Shown: piece by piece, positions 7,317-63,696 of the stretch
How the letters are laid out: each line of letters opens with the position of its first letter
Position numbering within the stretch: position 1 is the stretch's first letter
Assembly (NCBI GenBank): GCA_016906335.1
Contig: JADEYG010000003.1
Span: 806,001-870,000, forward strand
DNA from: Novakomyces olei
Lineage: Eukaryota
Reading direction: 5' to 3'
DNA: 64,000 nucleotides
Position numbers and translations under genes: made by a program
The notes under the pieces: generated by a model
What the model was told of the DNA's origin: nothing
The model's input: only the letters and a program-made list of their open reading frames with translations
The model's database searches: none

Positions 7317-7357
7317 TTTGCAGAAATGTTTTTGCTCTCAATATTTATTTTATTTTT

Positions 7358-7510
7358 TATTTGATAATTTATTATTTGATAATTTATTATTTGATAATTT
7401 ATTATTTGATAATTTATTATTTGATAATTTATTATTTGATAGTTTATTAATTGATAATTTATTCTATTTGATAATTTATTCTATTTGATAATTTATTCTG
7501 TTTGATAATG
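7358..7510. repeat. 15-bp minisatellite (TTGATAATTTATTAT) upstream of UTP13
   Basis: About 9-10 copies, degenerating to the right. Confidence 0.9.
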
Positions 7511-7965
7511 AATTATTTAATCATAATTCATTAATCATAATTTATTAATCATTATTTTATACAGCGTATATTTTGGGACATTTAATTATTAGATTTGCCG
7601 TGTGCACAAAGTATGCATCCAAGTATGAAATACTCAAACTGTCTGCAGTAGCTTTGTACGTCTATCTAAATGTTGGTTTTGCAGAGCGACTAGCGTCTTT
7701 TTTTTTTGTTGTTTTCTTTTAATTTACTCGCTTGTTTTCGCTTGATTTACTCGCCTGATTTACTCGCTTCCTATTCCACTATCCACAAATGAAATAACTT
7801 GTTTCGCGTATTTTTCGTATTTTTTGCGACAGTATTATAATTAATTAATTAATTATTTCTTTCCTTCTTCCACGACTGTCACACTGCCCAATATTACATA
7901 AAAAGCGCACTATATCGTCCCGACCAGTCAAAAGAGCGCAATTACAGGCGCCATACTGACCAAAA

Positions 7966-9992: not shown

Positions 9993-10181
9993 TTTTGGTG
10001 ATGCATAGTTTGCCTCATGTGTATATTGTGGACTAATCGTTTACAAATGTTGATAGCAGGAGACAGCGTAATGATGTGGCATATGGCATATGACCAAATG
10101 AATGATGTATAAGCATTCAATAATTGCATAATCGTAGATGTAATAGTGAAATGACTCTCCAACGATACCGACTGTGATTAA

Positions 10182-10514
<333 letters not shown>

Positions 10515-18971: not shown

Positions 18972-21127
18972 ATGATCCGGGTCGCAGTGTACTGTCGGCA
19001 CTGCTGCCGGCAGCAGTGCCGTCGGCGGAGCAGCACACGCGTCAATAACCCACTCATAAACCCTAACCCTCACACTCTAGCACGTGGGCAGTGGCGGTCG
19101 TATGCGACACACACCGCCAGCGCGTCCGTCCTCGAGCAGCTGCAGTCACGTGGGCTCGTCAAGGCCACAACGTCGCCGGCACAGTGTGCCCGGCACTTGG
19201 CGCGGCCACGGGTATCCGTATATGCGGGCATTGATCCGACGGCCGCGTCAATGCACGTGGGCCACCTGTTAGTACTGCTGCCGCTGCTGCACTTTTACCT
19301 GTACGGCCACCGCGTCTACGCCCTCGTCGGCGGTGCAACCGGGCTTATCGGCGATCCATCGGGCCGATCGGTGGAGCGACCGGCGCTGGACGCGTCCACG
19401 CTGCGCCACAATGTTGACGCGTTACGCGTTCAGCTGGACGCGTTTGTGGGGAACGCGTCTGCTTATGCCCGTTTAAGCGGCTACTCGCCGTTGCCGGGGC
19501 AACGGGAACGCGTGCCAATCACGGTAGTAAACAATGAAGACTGGTTCGGCAGTTTTGGTCTACTGCAGTTCCTGCGCCGCGTCGGCACTCGCGCGCGGCT
19601 GCAGCGGATGCTCGACCGCGATGTTGTCGCGACGCGGTACCGCCAAGGCGCGTCTGGCGACGCGGGGCTCACGTTTACGGAGCTGAGCTACCAATTGCTG
19701 CAGGCTTATGATTTTGCTCACTTGCACGAGCAGCACAACGTCACCGTGCAGCTCGGCGGCAGCGACCAGTGGGGGAATATCGTCGCTGGAATCGATCTTA
19801 TTGGTCGGCTGCGTGAAGAGCAGAGTGCCGAGGGAATGAAGGGGGATGGCCGGGAGGAGGTAGTGGAGCAGGACGTGTTTGGGATAACTGTGCCGCTCGT
19901 CACTACACGGAGTGGCGCAAAATTGGGTAAATCTGCGGGGAACGCTGTGTGGCTAGACGAGAATTTGACCCCGCCTTTTGATTTGTACCAGGTGAGGACT
20001 TTGGCTCTTGCCCGTATTCTTGTGATAAACTATTAATTAATAAATAATTATTAATTATATTAATTATTAATTATATTAATTATTAATTATATTAATTATT
20101 AATTATATTAATTATTAATTATATTATTTATTGATTATTATTGATTATTATTTATTATTGATTATTTATCAATTAATTATTGATTAATATTTATTATTCA
20201 TTTTTTATTATTTATTATTTGTTATTTATTATTTATTATTTATTATTTGTTATTTATTATTTATTATTTATTATTTATTATTTATTATTTATTATCATTT
20301 ATTATCATTTATTATCATTTATTATCATTTATTATCATTTATTATTATTTATTATTCATTTTTTATTATTTATTATTTGTTATTTATTATTTATTATTTA
20401 TTATTTGTTATTTATTATTTATTATTTATTATTTATTATTTATTATTTATTATCATTTATTATCATTTATTATCATTTATTATCATTTATTATTATTTAT
20501 TATCATTTATTATTATTTATTATTATTTATTATTATTTATTATTATTTATTATTATTTATTCATTGTTCTAACAGCAGTACTTTGTCAATACCCCGGACG
20601 ATTTGCTAGAGCAGTACCTGCGAATGCTCACCTTCTTGCCAGAGCACGCGATCCAGGATACGATGCAAAAACATGCGGCCAGTGTGGGACAGAAACGGCC
20701 GCTAGCCAATCATGTTTTAGCGCAGGAAGTAGTGCATTTAATCCACGGCAAAGACAAAAGTCTACGTGCTGCCGAGGCAGCACGTATTATGCACGGCAAC
20801 GATTTCACCGACGTGACTGTTTCCAATTTATGTCACATTTTTGCACAAAACATTCGCAAGATGCCACAGGCCTCCGTGCTTGGCCATCCGCTGCGTAACG
20901 TTGTCAGCCAAGCCTTTGACATATCAAAAAGTGGGTACTTTTCACCGCCATTTCTCTAATTTTTAGAATCTGCAGACCAGCACGTGACGGCCGGAGCCGT
21001 CTACGTGAACGGTGAACGACGAACACAGGCGGGCGCGCAAGTAACACAAGACATGTTGCTGCAGGACCGGGTTTTAGCCATAAAATTGGCCAAATCAAAG
21101 ATGGCCATTGTTCTAGTAGAAGAGTGA
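18972..21127 (+). CDS. MSY1: Mitochondrial tyrosyl-tRNA synthetase; introns 19992-20578 and 20931-20966
   Basis: YAGIDPTAASMHVGH (HIGH), QLGGSDQWGNI, KLGKSAGNAVWL (KMSKS-like), and C-terminal S4-like AGAVYVNG after splicing. Arg-rich presequence. Confidence 0.92.
20030..20562. repeat. Composite A/T satellite (TAATTATAT, TTATTAT, TTATCATTTA units) filling MSY1 intron 1
   Basis: Directly visible. Confidence 0.95.
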
Positions 21128-56350: not shown

Positions 56351-57763
56351 TTATTTTGCAACACGAATAACGACCTTCCCTATGCCTCCATGTCCGCTAT
56401 ATACGATCTGGCAAGCTTTTCGCACAGCTTCAATGTCCCCAAGATCGGCAACTGTGCCTACGACGGTAGTGAGCTTGCCCTCGTCCACAAACTTTCTCAA
56501 GGAGTCTAAATCTGAACCATTCGATTCCAGAAACATGTAGGAATAATCGGTTCGATAGCGTCGTGCTCTAAATTTGCGGACCGAGTCCATTAAATTGAGC
56601 ATGAGACGAAAAGCATAGGGTAGGGAAGGATTGTGAGGCAATTCCATAATTGAAGAAGCTTGAAGCTGGTCACCCGAGGGTGTCGTTGAGATGGAAACGA
56701 TACGACTTGTTTCCGGTTTCATTAGACAAAGGTACGGCATGGAGGAGCCAATTGTATCAAAAAGAAAATCAACTGAGCCATGCTCAATGACGTCTCTTGG
56801 ATCTGATTTGGTATAATCGATAACTGTGCAATTAGAAATTTGATAAAAATTGAAAGAAACGTGTTGATTAAAAATGCAATAAAGGCATCCATTGCAAAAA
56901 GAAGTACTGATGACTGGAGGAAAATCCAAACTTGATGACTGGAGGAAAATCCAAACTTAATAATGGGTAATCACTCACTCTGATCCACAACAGCAGCTCC
57001 AAGAAGCTCTTTTAATTTGGGTATTTTTGATGTTGAAACCGTAGTAATAACTCGGCCGGCGTGGAAAACATTTTTTGCTAATTGGCAGGCAAAAAGACCT
57101 GTCCCACTCACTGCCAAGTCAATTTAGCGTTTCATTGATCACATACGTCCAGCAGGAACAAAAACCGTTTTCGCTGCTAAATCGCCATTGTATTTTTCTA
57201 GTGCCTGAAAGGCTGTCATTGCCGCCAACGGAATGGACGCGGCCTCCTCAAAAGACAGCGATGACGGTTTAAGGCTTATATAATTATCGGCACAAACAGC
57301 ATATTCACTGCAAGATCCTAGTAAAAGCAAAAGCATTAATAATAATTAATAGCAAAGAGAATTTAAAAAACTAAAAACATATCTCGGCGTACCTCGCGAA
57401 ACCTCCGGCAGCCTGACATAAACGGCGTCTCCATTCTTAAACTTTGTTACGTCATGTCCGACTTGTTCAACAACACCAGCGCAATCATATCCAATCTTGT
57501 ACGGGAACCTTATCGTTAGCTTGTAAAATAAAAAATAAATAAATAAATTTAAATGCACATATCTAATTGGGCCAAAACGCAACTCACCTGTCCTTGAGGA
57601 CCAACTTGAGCACACCATCGGCCTTTTTCACGTCAATTGGATTCATGCTGGCTGCGTGTACTTTTACAAGCACATCCTTAGAGTCTTCAATTTTCGGCTT
57701 GGGCAAGTCTGAAACGCGATATCCCGAAGGATCCGTGTAAGACTCGATATTGAGCGACAGCAT
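56351..57763 (-). CDS. NADP-dependent medium-chain dehydrogenase/reductase (zinc-independent quinone/enoyl reductase-like); 4 introns
   Basis: VLVKVHAASMNPIDVK, IGYDCAGVV, EEAASIPLAAMTAFQAL, VPAG|LSGTG and GKVVI. Confidence 0.85.
56908..56957. repeat. Perfect 25-bp tandem duplication (TGATGACTGGAGGAAAATCCAAACT)x2 in an MDR intron
   Basis: Directly visible. Confidence 0.9.
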
Positions 57764-58171: not shown

Positions 58172-59002
58172 ATGTCGTACCTGAAGCTGCGTGATGGCGC
58201 TGAGCTCTTTTACAAAGACTGGGGAAGCAAGGACGGTGACATCATCACCTTCTCCCACGGATGGCCTTTGAGCAGCGACAATTGGGAGAATCAAATGTTC
58301 TTTTTCGCCGATCAGGGCTACCGTGTGATCGCGCACGATCGGCGCGGCCATGGCCGATCAACACAGACGTGGCACGGAAACTGTATGGACACGTTTGCCG
58401 ATGATCTTGAAGAGCTTTTTGACTATCTTGGAGTACAAAAGGCAGTAATGGTGGGACACTCCCACGGCGGAGGCGAGGTCGCACACTACTTGGGCAAGCA
58501 TGGAACACGCCGCTTCAAGAAAGCCGTCATTGTCTCTGGCGTGCCGCCACTGCTGTTGAAGACGTCAAGTAATGAGCAGGGCCTAGAGAAATCTGTGTTT
58601 GACTCCTTCAGGGACTCTATGAAGAAAGACCGAGCCCAGTTCTTTCTTGATGTTGCTTCTGGACCTTTCTTTGGATTTAATAGGCCCGGGGCACAAAAGA
58701 GCGAAGGCCAGATTCGAAGCTGGTGGCAGCAGGGAATGAATACAAGCTTTAAATCGGCCTACGATTGTATCAAAGACTTCTCAGAGACAGATTTCTCGGG
58801 GGATCTTAAAAGTATAGTCATTCCTGTGCTTGTCATTCACGGCGACGACGATCAGATCGTTCCGATCGCTCCAACCGCTTTGAAATCTGCCAAGCTTCTT
58901 CCGAAGGGAGAACTCAAAGTATATCCGGGAGGTTCTCACGCGCTTCACAACGTCAACATTGACGCGATCAATAAAGATTTGCTCAATTTTGTCAAAGCTT
59001 GA
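58172..59002 (+). CDS. Non-heme haloperoxidase/perhydrolase-type alpha/beta hydrolase (Cpo-like), intronless
   Basis: LFYKDWG, FSHGWPLSSD, HDRRGHGRS, nucleophile GHSHGG, acid HGDDDQIVP and His YPGGSH. Confidence 0.9.
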   Translation: MSYLKLRDGAELFYKDWGSKDGDIITFSHGWPLSSDNWENQMFFFADQGYRVIAHDRRGHGRSTQTWHGNCMDTFADDLEELFDYLGVQKAVMVGHSHGGGEVAHYLGKHGTRRFKKAVIVSGVPPLLLKTSSNEQGLEKSVFDSFRDSMKKDRAQFFLDVASGPFFGFNRPGAQKSEGQIRSWWQQGMNTSFKSAYDCIKDFSETDFSGDLKSIVIPVLVIHGDDDQIVPIAPTALKSAKLLPKGELKVYPGGSHALHNVNIDAINKDLLNFVKA

Positions 59003-59638: not shown

Positions 59639-60967
59639 CTACGCGGCGGCCTTCTCTCGCAGCATTGCGTCATAGCGCAATACCGCTCCAAGTAAGGTCT
59701 GTGCGCCCATAAAGCAGTCTTCTGGTGAGGAGTACTCGTTCGGGTTATGGGATATTCCGTCTTTGCAGCGGCACATGACCATTGCTGTTGGGCAAACGTT
59801 ATTGGTCCAAGAGCTGTCGTGCACAGTATGGCTCACCAAGTCCAGTGTGGAGAAGCCTTGAGCTTGAGCCGACTCCCGGAAGTAGTCTGCAATACTTGCG
59901 TCATAGTCAAAGGGATCAATGTCCAAGATTTGGTTCAGTGAGAGCTCTAGTTTTTCGTCTTCGGCTATCTTTGTAACGGCACTCAGGATATCGCTTTCCT
60001 GTGCTTTCAAACGGGTCAGATCCTCGTTTTGAACGGAAAACAAAAACTCCACTACTCCAGGGATATTGCACCCCGACTTGGGGTACGAATTGAAAATAGT
60101 CACTGTCCCGAATCCATCGTTTTTAATGGAAAGCTCATTAACGGCTTGCACGATTTTTGATGCCCCCAATAGAGCATCGCGACGCCGGTCCATCGGAGTC
60201 GTATCGGTGTGTCGGCTGAACCCTACCAATTTGACCCGAAACCAATGATTGCCTTGGTTACCGACTACAATCCCAATCTGCTTGCCGGCCGTTTCGATTC
60301 TTGTTCCCTGTTCGATATGCAGCTCAAAATGGGCACTGAGCGGGTTTGCAACATGACTTGCCAAAGTGTCACCAAGAAACCCGGTAGACTCGAGCGCTTT
60401 TTGCAGGGTTAAAGTTGGCGTTTCTGTATCGAAGCATTTGAAGGCTGCTTCTGGTGTCATCGCCCCACACCAGACACCAGAGGCTAAACAGGCTGGAGCG
60501 AAACGCGATCCTTCTTCGCCAGTCCAGTTTATCACGGCAATTGGTGCGTAATTTTTGTAGCCTGCTTTTTTCATTGCTTTGACGGATTCGATAGCGGTGA
60601 GCACTCCGAGGGGACCGTCGAACCGGCCGCCACATGGAACGGAATCGAGATGGCTGCCGATACCAATTGGTGCCAAATCGTTGTTTTCTCCTGGTAGAAT
60701 GGCCCATTGTGATCCAACTTGATCCACTCGGTAGCTCAGCCCGAGGCCGGTTACAGTCTCCTTGAACCAATTTCTGATTTTAACATCATTTTCATCGAGC
60801 GCCAAACGATGGATGCCGCCGTCGGGTGTTGCGCCTGCAATCATAGCTGTCTCATGGATTTTGTTATACAGGGCATCTTTGTCTATTGTGACGCTGCTGC
60901 TGAAGCGGACAAGCTTTTGTTTGTTTTGCGCTAGGGCCGATCGCAAAGTGCCAACAACGGTACGCAT
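59639..60967 (-). CDS. M20 Zn-dependent amidohydrolase (hydantoinase/carbamoylase, beta-ureidopropionase/allantoate amidohydrolase-like), intronless
   Basis: GSHLDSVPCGGRFDG, NWTGEEGSRF, HFELHIEQG and GISHNPNE metal-binding motifs. Confidence 0.9.
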   Translation of the reverse strand: MRTVVGTLRSALAQNKQKLVRFSSSVTIDKDALYNKIHETAMIAGATPDGGIHRLALDENDVKIRNWFKETVTGLGLSYRVDQVGSQWAILPGENNDLAPIGIGSHLDSVPCGGRFDGPLGVLTAIESVKAMKKAGYKNYAPIAVINWTGEEGSRFAPACLASGVWCGAMTPEAAFKCFDTETPTLTLQKALESTGFLGDTLASHVANPLSAHFELHIEQGTRIETAGKQIGIVVGNQGNHWFRVKLVGFSRHTDTTPMDRRRDALLGASKIVQAVNELSIKNDGFGTVTIFNSYPKSGCNIPGVVEFLFSVQNEDLTRLKAQESDILSAVTKIAEDEKLELSLNQILDIDPFDYDASIADYFRESAQAQGFSTLDLVSHTVHDSSWTNNVCPTAMVMCRCKDGISHNPNEYSSPEDCFMGAQTLLGAVLRYDAMLREKAAA

Positions 60968-61558
60968 TTTAATTGGATTTATCTTTTTGACAAACGATCT
61001 CTGACTTTGTCAAATTGGCTGATAATTTTCACGGCTCAGGCTCTTTAAACTTTACTAAAGTTTGTCAAATTGTTCACTATTTCATAATTGGAACATGCGG
61101 GCGGGTTTTAAAGGACGCCAGCTTGGCTCAATTTTAAGACAATATCCGACTCTTTTCGGAACCTCAATTCGTGGGCAGTTACCCACTGTGGCTGAGCTTT
61201 CTGGCTTTGATTGATTCAGCACTTATCATCCTTCAATGTCGTCCAGCTTTGCGGAATACCGACTGCATCCCACATAAGAACGACTCCAAATCCTCACCTG
61301 CCGTTTTGGGAAGCGACTCCAACTTGAGATAAGATTATCATGATAAGAAAGTGGATAAAAATCTCAAGCTTCGGCTCTGAATTTCGCTACATTAACTGTC
61401 TTATCTGGTTTGATAACTGCTCGATATTTTGGAGTCTTTAAATTAAGAAGGCTTCGACTGGACTTTGTTCACTTGTACAATTTGCCGCGAACCTATTATT
61501 CATCTAAACAAGGTTCATTCCGCTCCTGTGAATCAGATTCAACGCTCAAGTGGACAAT
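60968..61558. promoter_or_regulatory. Bidirectional promoter with clustered GATAA (GATA-factor/nitrogen catabolite repression-type) sites
   Basis: GATAA on either strand at ~61021, 61222, 61328, 61335, 61342, 61354, 61400 and 61412. Confidence 0.7.
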
Positions 61559-63696
61559 ATGCCTGAGACGGTGATTCCGCAGGCCCAAGGCTGGGGTCTA
61601 TTGATTGGTTTTTCGGCTTTGTTTATATTGATAATCGTACGTGGTGCTTCTGTGGCTAATGGCTAATGGTCTAGGTTTTGGTATCGTGGTTGCTCAATCG
61701 TTATACTGTAGAGATGCGGTCGGCTGAGCACTTCAATACAGCCTCTCGTTCTGTTAAAGCGGGACTGATTGCTTGTGCAGTCACTAGGTAATTAAATTCA
61801 TTCGGGGTTTTGCACTGTTTGCTTATTATTCAAGCTCTTGGACCTGGGCAGCTACTCTGCTACAGAGTACGACTTTAACGTATCAATTTGGAGTCAGTGG
61901 AGCCGTGCACTATGCTACGGGAGCAACCATACAAATTTTACTGTTCTCTATTCTCGCTGTTGATCTCAAACGCCGAGCTCCTTCTTGCCATACTTTTGTC
62001 GAGATTGTCAAGGTCCGATATGGGAAGGTTGCTCATTTAATCTACCTCTTTTTCGGTCTATGTAAGTCAAATTGGCATATGTAATCTCCAGCATTCCCTG
62101 ACCAAAATAGTGACAAACGGCCTTGTGTCAAGTATGCTTATTGTCGGTGGAGGCGCTGTGGTAAACGCTCTCACTGAAATCCATCCTGTTGCATGCATGT
62201 TTTTGCTGCCGCTAAGCGTACTCGGCTTTACGGGTCATGCGGGCTTGCACAGCACATTCATCGTTGATTATGCTCATACAACTTGCGTAATTATTATTGC
62301 TATGTACTTTTGCTTTAAAGCCTATTTCACTGGCGATGCTATCGGTTCAATAGACCGGCTGTATGATGGACTGGTGCGGGCAGGCCAACTCAAGCCTGTC
62401 ACTGGCAACGCTCAAGGCTCTTATTTGACAATGCGATCGTTGCAAGGCGGTCAGTTTTTGGGGATCCAAATAATTGCTGGCTTTGCTACCGTATTCGTGG
62501 ATCAGGGCTACTGGACAAAAGCGATAAGTAGCACCTCCAGTGCTGCCCTCAAAGGTTATCTCTTGGGTGGGCTAGCGTGGACGGGCTTACCGTATGCGGT
62601 AGGCACTGTTTTCGGGCTGAGCGCGCTTTGTCTCGAACGTACTGAGCTATGGCCCACGTATCCTCGGCTAATGACGGCGGAAGAAGTAACTGCCGGACTC
62701 ACATTGCCGTACGCGGCAGCAGCGTTACTTGGAAAAGGAGGAGCAATAGGCGCGTTTGTGCTGTTATTTGGTGCGGTTACCTCTGCCTTTTCTGCGCAAC
62801 TGATTAGTGTATCGTCACTGGTCACATATGACGTGTACGCAACGTACATTAATCGCAGTGCTAGTGATAAGCAGTTACGGCTCGTGTCGCGTGGAGCTGC
62901 CACGGCATGGACACTTTTTATTGCCGGGATTGCCTGTCTGTTTTTCTATATTAATGCCACTGTGGGCTTTTTATATTACTTGATGGGTGTCCTGATGGGC
63001 TCTTGTGTGCTCAGTATTACCCTACTGTGCATGTGGAAGGGTCAAAATAAACAGAGTGCAATTTTGAGTCCAATTATTGGGCTGGCCTCGGGAGTTATTG
63101 TATGGCTGGTTGAGACAAAGGCAAGGTACGGGGCCCTGCATGAGGATACACTGGACCAGCTCTGGCCCTCATTGGCGGGATGCATTACCAGTATGTTTAC
63201 GCCCGTACTCGTAACTCTTATTTGCACGCTAGTATGGGGGGTCGCCAAATTTGATTGGGCAGACTTGAATGAAAAAATTGAGCAATCACAAGAGTTCCGT
63301 CGGTACAATGAGGAAGTTGAACAAGAATTTCATTCTCAAAAGCTTACTGCTGAGGAAAGTGCTCATTTAGCCAAAGCGAGTCGTCGTGCAAAATGGTTGG
63401 CTCTTATCTTTGCATTTGGTCTGCTCGTAATTTGGACAGTTCCGCTTTATGCTTCGAGTTATATATTTACTAAACCTTTTCTCACCAGCTGGGTTGTTAT
63501 AAGTATTATTTGGCTCTTTTGCAGCGCTGGTATGGTCGTATTGTACCCAATATACGACGGCCGCCAAAGCCTTTTGGGAGTTTATAGAGGCATTTGCAAT
63601 GATTTGAATTTTGGGCACAAGTCTGAGTTTATTGAAGGGCAAGATGTTGTTGAACCGGAGAGCCGTATCGAAGTCGATGCCGATGAAAAGAATTGA
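61559..63696 (+). CDS. DUR3: Urea/polyamine active transporter, sodium:solute symporter family (Dur3/UreA-like); 3 introns
   Basis: Spliced FNTASRSVKAGL, SSWTWAATLLQS, KRRAPSCHTFVEIVKVRYG, GNAQGSYLTM, SAQLISVSSLVTYDVY and many TM helices. Confidence 0.88.

What the first reader, a model, noticed from the sequence alone, without database searches (positions are those of the whole stretch)
59639..60967. M20 carbamoylase-type amidohydrolase with a rewired substrate pocket
Seen: all di-zinc ligand motifs are intact (GSHLD, RFDG, GEEG, ELHIEQG, SHNP), so it looks like a functional enzyme. The substrate-side motifs differ from the family pattern as I recall it from L-carbamoylase, beta-alanine synthase and allantoate amidohydrolase. 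HAG(T/A)TPM becomes HTDTTPM. YPxxxNVIPxxVxFxxDxR becomes YPKSGCNIPGVVEFLFSVQ (nt ~60029-60086), so the Asn and the carboxylate-anchoring Arg positions read Cys and Gln. SGA(G/A)HD becomes SHTVHD. Known: that Arg/Asn/His set binds the substrate carboxylate in these enzymes. Inference: the enzyme hydrolyses an ureido/amide substrate lacking a carboxylate, such as an N-carbamoyl-amine or substituted urea, which would be an undescribed specificity.
Basis: partly seen in the sequence, partly recalled or inferred. Interest (0 to 1): 0.7.

Follow-up and report, generated by a model that had tools for sequence, protein, structure and literature searches.

The report
Fungal carbamoylase with charge-swapped pocket
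A fungal enzyme of a well-known family that strips carbamoyl groups has lost the arginine that grips acidic substrates and gained an acidic residue beside it, a change shared by scattered fungi, so it probably releases nitrogen from a different, still unidentified urea-type compound.

Summary
Window 59639-60967 (-) is an intact, intronless 442-aa fungal hydantoinase/carbamoylase-family (M20) protein. All five metal ligands, the catalytic Glu and the carbamoyl-binding Gln and His are kept; the Asn309 and Arg322 positions of beta-alanine synthase read Cys300 and Gln313. This is not decay: 17 of 17 selected fungal relatives share G255D, N300C, D311S, R313Q and A381T, sites where 92-99% of 256 Arg-type proteins keep another residue. 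In a homodimer model the new Asp255 of one subunit touches Gln313 of the other, which suggests a charge swap at the old carboxylate site. The genome keeps a canonical Arg-type paralog and a second Arg-less copy. The gene shares a 591-bp divergent promoter holding 9 GATAA sites with a DUR3-like transporter, and most Arg-less fungal proteins have mitochondrial-type N-termini. Best reading (0.6): a nitrogen-scavenging decarbamoylase for a small ureide that ends in an amine or amide, not a carboxylate. Main rival (0.2): the new Arg252 is a relocated carboxylate clamp. The substrate is unidentified and DUR3 linkage in other fungi could not be tested. New variant of a known kind.

The parts
59639..60967 (-). 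Intronless 442-aa M20 hydantoinase/carbamoylase-family amidohydrolase (P0001), Arg-less 'Q-clade'
   Evidence: (TIGR01879 332 bits, cut-off 204)
60887..60967 (-). N-terminal 27 residues, 5 basic and 0 acidic; looks like a mitochondrial presequence (inferred from composition, no predictor run)
60644..60658 (-). GSHLD, metal ligand His106 (= His114 of beta-alanine synthase)
60614..60625 (-). RFDG, bridging ligand Asp117 (= Asp125)
60509..60520 (-). GEEG, catalytic base Glu151 (= Glu159) and ligand Glu152 (= Glu160)
60305..60325 (-). ELHIEQG, ligand His217 (= His226) and carbamoyl-binding Gln220 (= Gln229; Gln196 of RrCbAA)
60203..60214 (-). R252-H253-T254-D255: His262 equivalent kept; new Asp255 (Gly in 253 of 256 Arg-type proteins) and new Arg252
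60065..60070 (-). C300-N301: Asn309 position replaced by Cys, new Asn one residue later
60029..60037 (-). S311-V312-Q313: the D-x-R motif lost at both ends; Gln313 stands at the Arg322/Arg291 position
59816..59833 (-). SHTVHD: His380, Thr381 (Ala in 238 of 251 Arg-type), Val382, His383 (= His397)
59741..59752 (-). SHNP, metal ligand His407 (= His421)
60968..61558 (.). Divergent intergenic region with 9 GATAA sites (2 within 60 bp of the M20 start, 6 at 61328-61412)
   Evidence: shuffle mean 1.44, 0 of 1000 shuffles reach 9
61559..63696 (+). Intron-containing DUR3-like sodium:solute symporter, head-to-head with the M20 gene
58172..59002 (+). Intronless non-heme chloroperoxidase/arylesterase-like alpha/beta hydrolase, convergent neighbour; no link to the M20 gene shown
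56351..57763 (-). Intron-containing zinc-binding dehydrogenase-like gene; no link shown

Best explanation
A working homodimeric di-metal (Zn or Mn) amidohydrolase, probably imported into mitochondria and expressed under nitrogen limitation, that cuts a terminal carbamoyl group (R-NH-CO-NH2 + H2O -> R-NH2 + CO2 + NH3) by the beta-alanine synthase mechanism: metal-bridged hydroxide attacks, Glu151 shuttles the proton, Gln220 and His253 of the partner subunit hold the carbamoyl end. The far end of the pocket is rebuilt. Arg and its Asp neighbour are gone, the Asn has moved by one residue, and Asp255 of the partner subunit lies against Gln313, so a carboxylate is disfavoured and an amine, amidinium or amide NH2 is favoured. 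Candidate class: N-carbamoyl-diamines such as N-carbamoylputrescine, or small neutral ureides such as biuret or alkylureas, taken up by the neighbouring DUR3-like transporter. Shown by sequence: residues, clade, promoter sites. Modelled: dimer and the Asp255-Gln313 contact. Inferred: activity, location, regulation, substrate class.
For: Catalytic set kept in all Q-clade rows that cover it. Five columns fixed in 17 of 17 Q-clade rows against a different residue in 253/256 (G255), 236/255 (N300), 248/256 (D311), 256/256 (R313, by definition of the group) and 238/251 (A381) Arg-type rows. 9 of 18 clade-diagnostic positions fall among the 67 cross-subunit residues of the model, Fisher p 7e-4. Dimer model 0.88 against best control 0.00, runs agree in at least 99% of contacts, partner pLDDT at least 95, Q313 touches D255' and T254' at 0.7 A expected error (the mark was reached by 20 of 30 solved pairs and 1 of 23 single chains, and like dimers are solved, so the pass itself may be from memory). 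Arg322 is crucial for catalysis on the acid substrate and anchors its carboxylate (PMC12169670; PMC10952681). The canonical jobs have other genes in this genome: Arg-type paralog on C9, dihydropyrimidinase, allantoicase, urease. 9 GATAA sites in the shared intergenic region. The second Arg-less copy (C7) has Glu at 255 and also sits by a transporter whose upstream gap is GATA-rich (7 GATAA, 16 of 1000 shuffles). Presequence-like N-termini in 13 of 16 Q-clade, 9 of 9 sister-clade and 10 of 12 rows of a separate Arg-less fungal clade, against 2 of 27 Arg-type rows picked as fungal.
Against: Arg252 is fixed in 17 of 17 and lies in the cross-subunit list; it could restore a carboxylate clamp. No agmatine deiminase (PF04371) was found in the genome (0 matches), so the textbook internal source of N-carbamoylputrescine is missing, and nitrilase-family and isochorismatase-family genes that might already handle N-carbamoylputrescine or biuret are present but untyped. 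The neighbour is this genome's best match to ordinary DUR3 among the paralogs fetched, so the GATA sites may serve the transporter alone. Other DUR3 paralogs here sit beside a sulfatase, a LamB plus urea-carboxylase-like pair and a PhyH dioxygenase, so DUR3 likeness does not fix the substrate. The two metagenome loci of the clade show other downstream neighbours and lack the upstream side. The 17 rows are related by descent and are not independent events.
Confidence: 0.6

Rival explanations
1. Relocated clamp: the lost D311/R313 pair has been replaced by an R252/D255 pair on the partner subunit's loop, and the enzyme still hydrolyses an N-carbamoyl acid of different length or geometry.
For: Arg252 in 17 of 17 Q-clade rows and in the C7 paralog; it is adjacent to His253 and in the model's cross-subunit list.
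Against: Arg252 is absent from other Arg-less rows (P0216 QHAE, P0141 GH, the sister clade GHAN). 5 of 256 canonical proteins carry Arg at 252 together with the canonical Arg, which suggests that this side chain points out of the tight pocket (inference). The contact listed at the old Arg site is Asp255, not Arg252 (which lists only the 25 best pairs).
Confidence: 0.2
2. The scissile group is not a ureide but a small acyl amide (formyl or acetyl amine, or an amino-acid amide), and the rebuilt pocket reflects that.
For: The DTQP loop near the first metal ligand reads DSVP/DSVQ and is in the model's interface list. That carbamoylases accept N-formyl and N-acetyl substrates is recalled, not from a call.
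Against: Gln220, which orients the carbamoyl group in RrCbAA (Gln196), is kept in 17 of 17. DSV also occurs in Arg-type rows (P0190). GATA sites and a DUR3-like neighbour fit ammonia release.
Confidence: 0.1
3. Mitochondrial metabolite repair: the enzyme removes carbamoyl groups put on amines by carbamoyl phosphate or by side reactions of ornithine transcarbamylase, and the transporter is an unrelated neighbour.
For: Presequence-like N-termini track Arg loss in two separate fungal origins. No agmatine deiminase found. A mitochondrial carbamoyl-phosphate pool in such fungi is recalled, not tested.
Against: The clade is rare and patchy (14 rows above the score gap among the best 120), unlike a housekeeping repair enzyme. 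Both Arg-less copies in this genome sit next to transporters with GATA-rich upstream regions.
Confidence: 0.07
4. A decaying or inactive duplicate of beta-alanine synthase.
For: Loss of Arg322 cripples the canonical reaction. Some database gene models of the clade are truncated (P0014, P0015, P0033).
Against: Intact ORF, 128 of 410 columns invariant in 17 rows, the same new residues from ascomycetes to Gloeophyllales, pS 0.88 against pN 0.18 over 178 codons.
Confidence: 0.03

Closest known systems
Beta-alanine synthase of Saccharomyces (Lachancea) kluyveri, PDB 1R3N, 2V8G, 2V8H, 2VL1
   Same: Fold (Foldseek TM 0.87-0.88 to the closed forms, 32% identity), metal ligands, Glu159, Gln229, His262, His397, identical motif spacing.
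   Different: Arg322 is Gln, Asn309 is Cys; against Arg-type relatives also G255D, D311S, A381T. Basic N-terminal extension. The genome's Arg-type paralog lies on C9.
N-carbamoyl-beta-alanine amidohydrolase of Rhizobium radiobacter (8C46) and L-N-carbamoylase of Sinorhizobium meliloti (8APZ); Burkholderia 5THW
   Same: Best sequence and structure matches (E 1e-76 to 1e-80, 37-39% identity, TM up to 0.87); Glu131, Gln196, His385 equivalents kept.
   Different: Arg291, which makes the salt bridge to the ligand carboxylate, is Gln313. The acid surrogates named in that paper are sulfonate and phosphonate, still anions.
Allantoate amidohydrolase AllC (1Z2L, 4PXD), plant ureidoglycolate amidohydrolase (4PXB), ErtE
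   Same: Same M20 carbamoylase fold and chemistry at the ureido end.
   Different: 26-28% identity for the two solved enzymes; far below the curated cut-offs (TIGR03176 167 of 598 bits; ErtE 266 of 520). Their substrates are carboxylates.
N-carbamoylputrescine amidohydrolase (AguB/NCPAH) and biuret/triuret hydrolases (BiuH, TrtA)
   Same: Catalyse the kind of reaction proposed here, on ureides without a carboxylate (PMC11506843; PMC7948467).
   Different: Unrelated folds: BiuH and TrtA are isochorismatase-like cysteine hydrolases; AguB is nitrilase-family (recalled). No M20 enzyme with these activities turned up in my searches.

Membership tests
Hydantoinase/carbamoylase family of peptidase M20 (TIGR01879) | Score above the curated family cut-off | tested here: met
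   332.1 bits against 204; PF01546 74.5 against 24.6
Hydantoinase/carbamoylase family of peptidase M20 (TIGR01879) | Five metal ligands (His, Asp, Glu, His, His) and catalytic Glu | tested here: met
   H106, D117, E152, H217, H407, E151
Hydantoinase/carbamoylase family of peptidase M20 (TIGR01879) | Catalytic plus dimerisation domain; homodimer with a shared active site | tested here: met
   Model pLDDT 81.7, TM 0.87-0.88 to closed structures; dimer model 0.88 against control 0.00, possibly from memory of solved dimers. Modelled, not measured.
Beta-alanine synthase / L-N-carbamoylase | Carbamoyl-orienting Gln229 and His262, plus His397 | tested here: met
   Q220, H253, H383 in 17 of 17 clade rows
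Beta-alanine synthase / L-N-carbamoylase | Carboxylate-anchoring Arg322 (Arg291) | tested here: not met
   Gln313
Beta-alanine synthase / L-N-carbamoylase | Carboxylate-binding Asn309 | tested here: not met
   Cys300, with a new Asn at 301
Beta-alanine synthase / L-N-carbamoylase | Hydrolysis of N-carbamoyl-beta-alanine or N-carbamoyl-L-amino acids | not testable with these tools
   Needs an assay
Allantoate amidohydrolase AllC / ErtE | Score above the equivalog cut-offs | tested here: not met
   TIGR03176 167 of 597.75; NF058540 266 of 520; all named equivalogs missed
Decarbamoylase of non-carboxylate ureides (proposed) | No basic residue at the old carboxylate site | tested here: inconclusive
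   Asp255' touches Gln313 in the model, but new Arg252 is unplaced
Decarbamoylase of non-carboxylate ureides (proposed) | Conserved linkage to a DUR3-like transporter across fungi | tested here: inconclusive
   Present here; the two metagenome loci lack the upstream side; the C7 copy has an MFS instead

The most novel reading that the evidence does not exclude
The founding member of a mitochondrial, charge-reversed branch of the M20 carbamoylases that decarbamoylates cationic ureides such as N-carbamoylputrescine, a reaction so far tied to another fold. The same solution (loss of the Arg, Asn shifted by one, Thr at 381) arose separately in Roseomonas and Thioclava next to omega-type aminotransferases, and Arg loss with mitochondrial targeting arose a second time in fungi, which would point to an unrecognised route for harvesting nitrogen from carbamoylated amines.
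Probability: 0.25. Interest if true: 0.7.

Novelty: new variant of a known kind. Interest (0 to 1): 0.5.

Why it matters
The characterised carbamoylase-type M20 enzymes in the papers I read all need an anionic handle on the substrate. A natural, conserved branch without it would name a new enzyme activity, expose a fungal nitrogen source that annotation now hides under 'N-carbamoyl-L-amino acid hydrolase' or 'beta-alanine synthase', and give enzyme engineers a five-residue map of specificity in a family used industrially. The question is cheap to settle: one soluble enzyme, an ammonia-release assay and a short substrate panel.

Tried and rejected
Synteny in other fungi: a clade-specific DNA pattern gave 8 metagenome stretches, 2 true (L095, L096) and 6 without an M20 match, and 1 viral stretch without a match; neither true locus covers the upstream side. 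The best 120 transporter homologs included none from the named Q-clade species, so accession adjacency could not be used. Expression: no RNA holder was listed, so no reads were laid. Agmatine deiminase route: no PF04371 match. Enzyme as a stand-in urease: made unnecessary by a urease gene. dN/dS: synonymous sites are saturated, so only pN and pS are given. Roseomonas/Thioclava neighbours as a guide to substrate: the trees place them as a separate origin, so they are an analogy only. A bootstrap tree did not finish; supports are FastTree and SH-aLRT values. ESM Atlas returned only generic M20 clusters. Whether the C7 MFS is a Hol1-type polyamine importer stays untested. Other GATAA-rich stretches of the window are simple tandem repeats (the one near 20000 judged from the translations). 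Earlier-findings look-ups by sequence, by place and by the first word set were empty.

Full report
Setting. The window is fungal: spliceosomal introns, housekeeping genes over the first 56 kb, and a 14.3-Mb genome in 15 contigs. The last 8 kb hold four metabolic genes: a zinc-binding dehydrogenase-like gene (-), a non-heme chloroperoxidase-like hydrolase (+), the M20 gene (-) and, head-to-head with it, a DUR3-like transporter (+).

The observation. The ORF is 59639-60967 (-), 442 aa, intronless and uninterrupted. It passes the hydantoinase/carbamoylase family cut-off (TIGR01879, 332 against 204 bits) and misses every named equivalog. Its best solved relatives are carbamoylases and beta-alanine synthases by sequence and by fold (model pLDDT 81.7; TM 0.87-0.88 to closed forms). 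A direct residue alignment with the S. kluyveri enzyme was not printed, so I fixed the register in two ways. The spacings between His226, Gln229, His262, Asn309 and Arg322 given in PMC12169670 are 3, 33, 47, 13, and so are those of H217, Q220, H253, C300, Q313. And Q313 aligns with the arginine of 8C46 that PMC10952681 calls Arg291, the salt bridge to the ligand carboxylate. As a control, 80 of 80 bacterial loci show Arg in that column.

It is a clade, not a mutant. The closest proteins are fungal and share the signature DSV / RH(T/A)DTT / CNI / FSxQ / S(H/M)T(G/A/V)HD: an unnamed 77% relative, then Phyllosticta, Aplosporella, Neofusicoccum, Botryosphaeria, a xylariomycete, Coleophoma, Halenospora, Lachnellula, Scytalidium, Pycnora and the basidiomycetes Gloeophyllum, Heliocybe and Neolentinus at 44-53% where measured. 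A profile search returned 14 rows above a clear score gap among its best 120, so the clade is small and patchy. In an alignment of 338 proteins (all fetched M20 proteins of 250 aa or more plus the two own paralogs), column 313 reads Arg 256, Gln 36, Val 16, Met 9, Glu 8, Ser 4, Cys 4, Gly 1, Leu 1, gap 3. From the 36 Gln rows I took 17, leaving out near-identical cluster members, truncated or mis-spliced models and the divergent Phialophora protein P0141, which has Gln313 but lacks C300, N301, S311 and T381. In the 17, five columns are fixed against a near-invariant canonical residue: D255 (Gly 253/256), C300 (Asn 236/255), S311 (Asp 248/256), Q313 and T381 (Ala 238/251). N301 and R252 are also new and fixed; metal ligands, E151, Q220, H253 and H383 are unchanged. 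128 of 410 columns are invariant. Two metagenome members differ at 0.88 of synonymous but 0.18 of non-synonymous sites over 178 codons. Decay is not a serious reading. The rows are kin, so 17 of 17 is one origin kept under selection, not 17 events.

History. In trees built without the pocket columns, the window protein, its 77% relative, a second own-genome copy (C7) and the other Gln proteins form one group (SH-aLRT 97.9), sister to a Dothideomycete-rich Arg-less group with HANTYPM / CNIQS / Met313 (SH-aLRT 83; FastTree 0.988), nested among Arg-type fungal enzymes. Two more Arg losses are separate: a Fonsecaea/Aspergillus group (Glu, Ser or Cys at 313) and a Roseomonas/Thioclava group that also has the shifted Asn301 and Thr381. 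The bacterial group lies with a peptide-type ABC transporter, aminotransferases and an amidase in 3 of 3 plasmid regions read; the aminotransferases fit an amine product, but this is analogy only.

Own genome. A protein search finds three genes. C9:150915 is canonical (HAGTTPM, SPNTIAG, VDLR, SGAGHD). C7:2561576 is Arg-less (RHSETTP, GANIPG, YSVL, SHTMHD; 45% identical to the window protein) and lies between an MFS transporter and an adenylation-thiolation-reductase protein. Dihydropyrimidinase, allantoicase, urease and three urea-carboxylase-like loci are present, so uracil, allantoate and urea have ordinary routes. No agmatine deiminase was found.

Geometry. A homodimer model with four zinc ions scored 0.88 against 0.00 for the best of three controls, with runs agreeing in at least 99% of contacts and pLDDT of at least 95. 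The mark was reached by 20 of 30 solved pairs and 1 of 23 single chains in calibration, and like dimers are solved, so the pass shows likeness, not binding. The useful part is the contact list: Q313 touches D255 and T254 of the other subunit, and 9 of the 18 clade-diagnostic positions lie among the 67 interface residues (p 7e-4). In the canonical enzyme Arg322, Asn309 and His262 anchor the carboxylate. Here an Asp sits where that Arg was. It either binds a cationic or NH-donor end of the substrate or fills the site for a smaller ureide; both disfavour a carboxylate. The open point is Arg252. It is absent from P0216, P0141 and the sister group, and 5 of 256 canonical proteins carry it beside the normal Arg, which argues that it points outward, but I could not inspect coordinates.

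Regulation and location. The 591 bp between the M20 and transporter start codons hold 9 GATAA sites (shuffle mean 1.44; 0 of 1000), whereas the two neighbouring gaps and the C9 upstream region are at chance level. That such sites mark nitrogen-catabolite control in fungi is established knowledge, recalled here. Six of the nine are nearer the transporter, which is this genome's best match to ordinary DUR3 among the paralogs fetched, so co-regulation is likely but not shown. By a crude rule of my own (16 or more residues before the conserved core, at least 3 Arg/Lys, at most 1 Asp/Glu), presequence-like N-termini occur in 13 of 16 Q-group rows including both own copies, 9 of 9 sister-group rows and 10 of 12 rows of the separate Fonsecaea/Aspergillus group, against 2 of 27 Arg-type rows picked as fungal (counted from its printout). 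No targeting predictor was available.

Mechanism and odds. Best reading, 0.6: a nitrogen-scavenging, probably mitochondrial decarbamoylase for a small ureide ending in an amine or amide. Within it I rank carbamoyl-diamines first (about 0.25 overall) because of the Asp/Glu at 255 and because DUR3 is named among yeast polyamine-related transporters (PMC11506843, where it is called dispensable), and neutral ureides such as biuret or alkylureas about equal. Against the diamine idea are the missing agmatine deiminase and untyped nitrilase-family genes. Rivals: relocated Arg clamp 0.2, acyl amide 0.1, metabolite repair 0.07, inactive 0.03.

Literature. I read passages and one section each of PMC12169670 and PMC10952681, and passages of PMC11506843 and PMC7948467; other papers were seen only as search listings, and no supplements were read. 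Ten searches showed no description of an Arg-less carbamoylase-type M20 enzyme or of this fungal clade. The library lacks most subscription papers, including the original structure and mutagenesis papers on beta-alanine synthase, so this is not proof of absence.

Verdict. A real, conserved, uncharacterised subfamily: a member of the M20 carbamoylase family, not a beta-alanine synthase or allantoate amidohydrolase by their defining residues. New variant of a known kind; interest 0.5, rising to about 0.7 if a cationic ureide is confirmed.

Noticed in passing
L008:4538-5931 (G000:C7:2561537-2562930): Second Arg-less paralog with two introns (Glu255, Ala300, Asn301, Leu313, Thr381), flanked by an NmrA-like gene, an MFS transporter and an adenylation-thiolation-reductase protein that resembles the glycine betaine reductase ATRR (name recalled, domains). 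An unnamed fragment P0216 is its closest relative (53%).
   Followed up: partly
L099:9001-10236, L100:8983-10230, L101:8974-10221: Roseomonas and Thioclava plasmid M20 enzymes lost the Arg separately and share the shifted Asn and Thr381; they sit with an ABC transporter, aminotransferases and an amidase, a tractable bacterial operon of unknown substrate.
   Followed up: partly
P0025, P0030, P0040, P0042, P0084 and kin: A separate fungal group (Fonsecaea, Cladophialophora, Exophiala, Aspergillus crustosus, Coleophoma) keeps HxG and AGAGHD but has Gly/Ala for the Asn and Glu, Ser or Cys for the Arg, mostly with presequence-like N-termini; one is annotated beta-alanine synthase.
   Followed up: partly
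P0114, P0144, P0433, P0435, P0437, P0438, P0443, P0447, P0449: Sister group with HANTYPM / CNIQS / Met313 / RTAHD in Neophaeotheca, Neodothiora, Cladosporium and metagenomes; probably yet another specificity.
   Followed up: partly
window 58172-59002 (+): Intronless hydrolase very close to bacterial non-heme chloroperoxidases (E 9e-106 to 4DGQ); possible bacterial origin not tested.
   Followed up: no
G000 C12:1356983-1360832, C7:49152-53098, C13:172-2954, C1:1226484-1227012: The genome has a urease and three urea-carboxylase-like loci, one next to LamB/YcsF and a DUR3 paralog; at least six DUR3-like genes sit beside different catabolic enzymes.
   Followed up: partly
P0185: An M20 protein that keeps the Arg but has Glu at 255 and has lost the Asn (HSETTPT, QSEIPAG, SRSSHD); a possible intermediate or separate case.
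   Followed up: no
window 7350-7520, about 10150-10500, 20170-20570; L010:8190-8680: Long simple AT-rich tandem repeats in introns and intergenic regions; they give spurious ORFs and GATAA counts.
   Followed up: no
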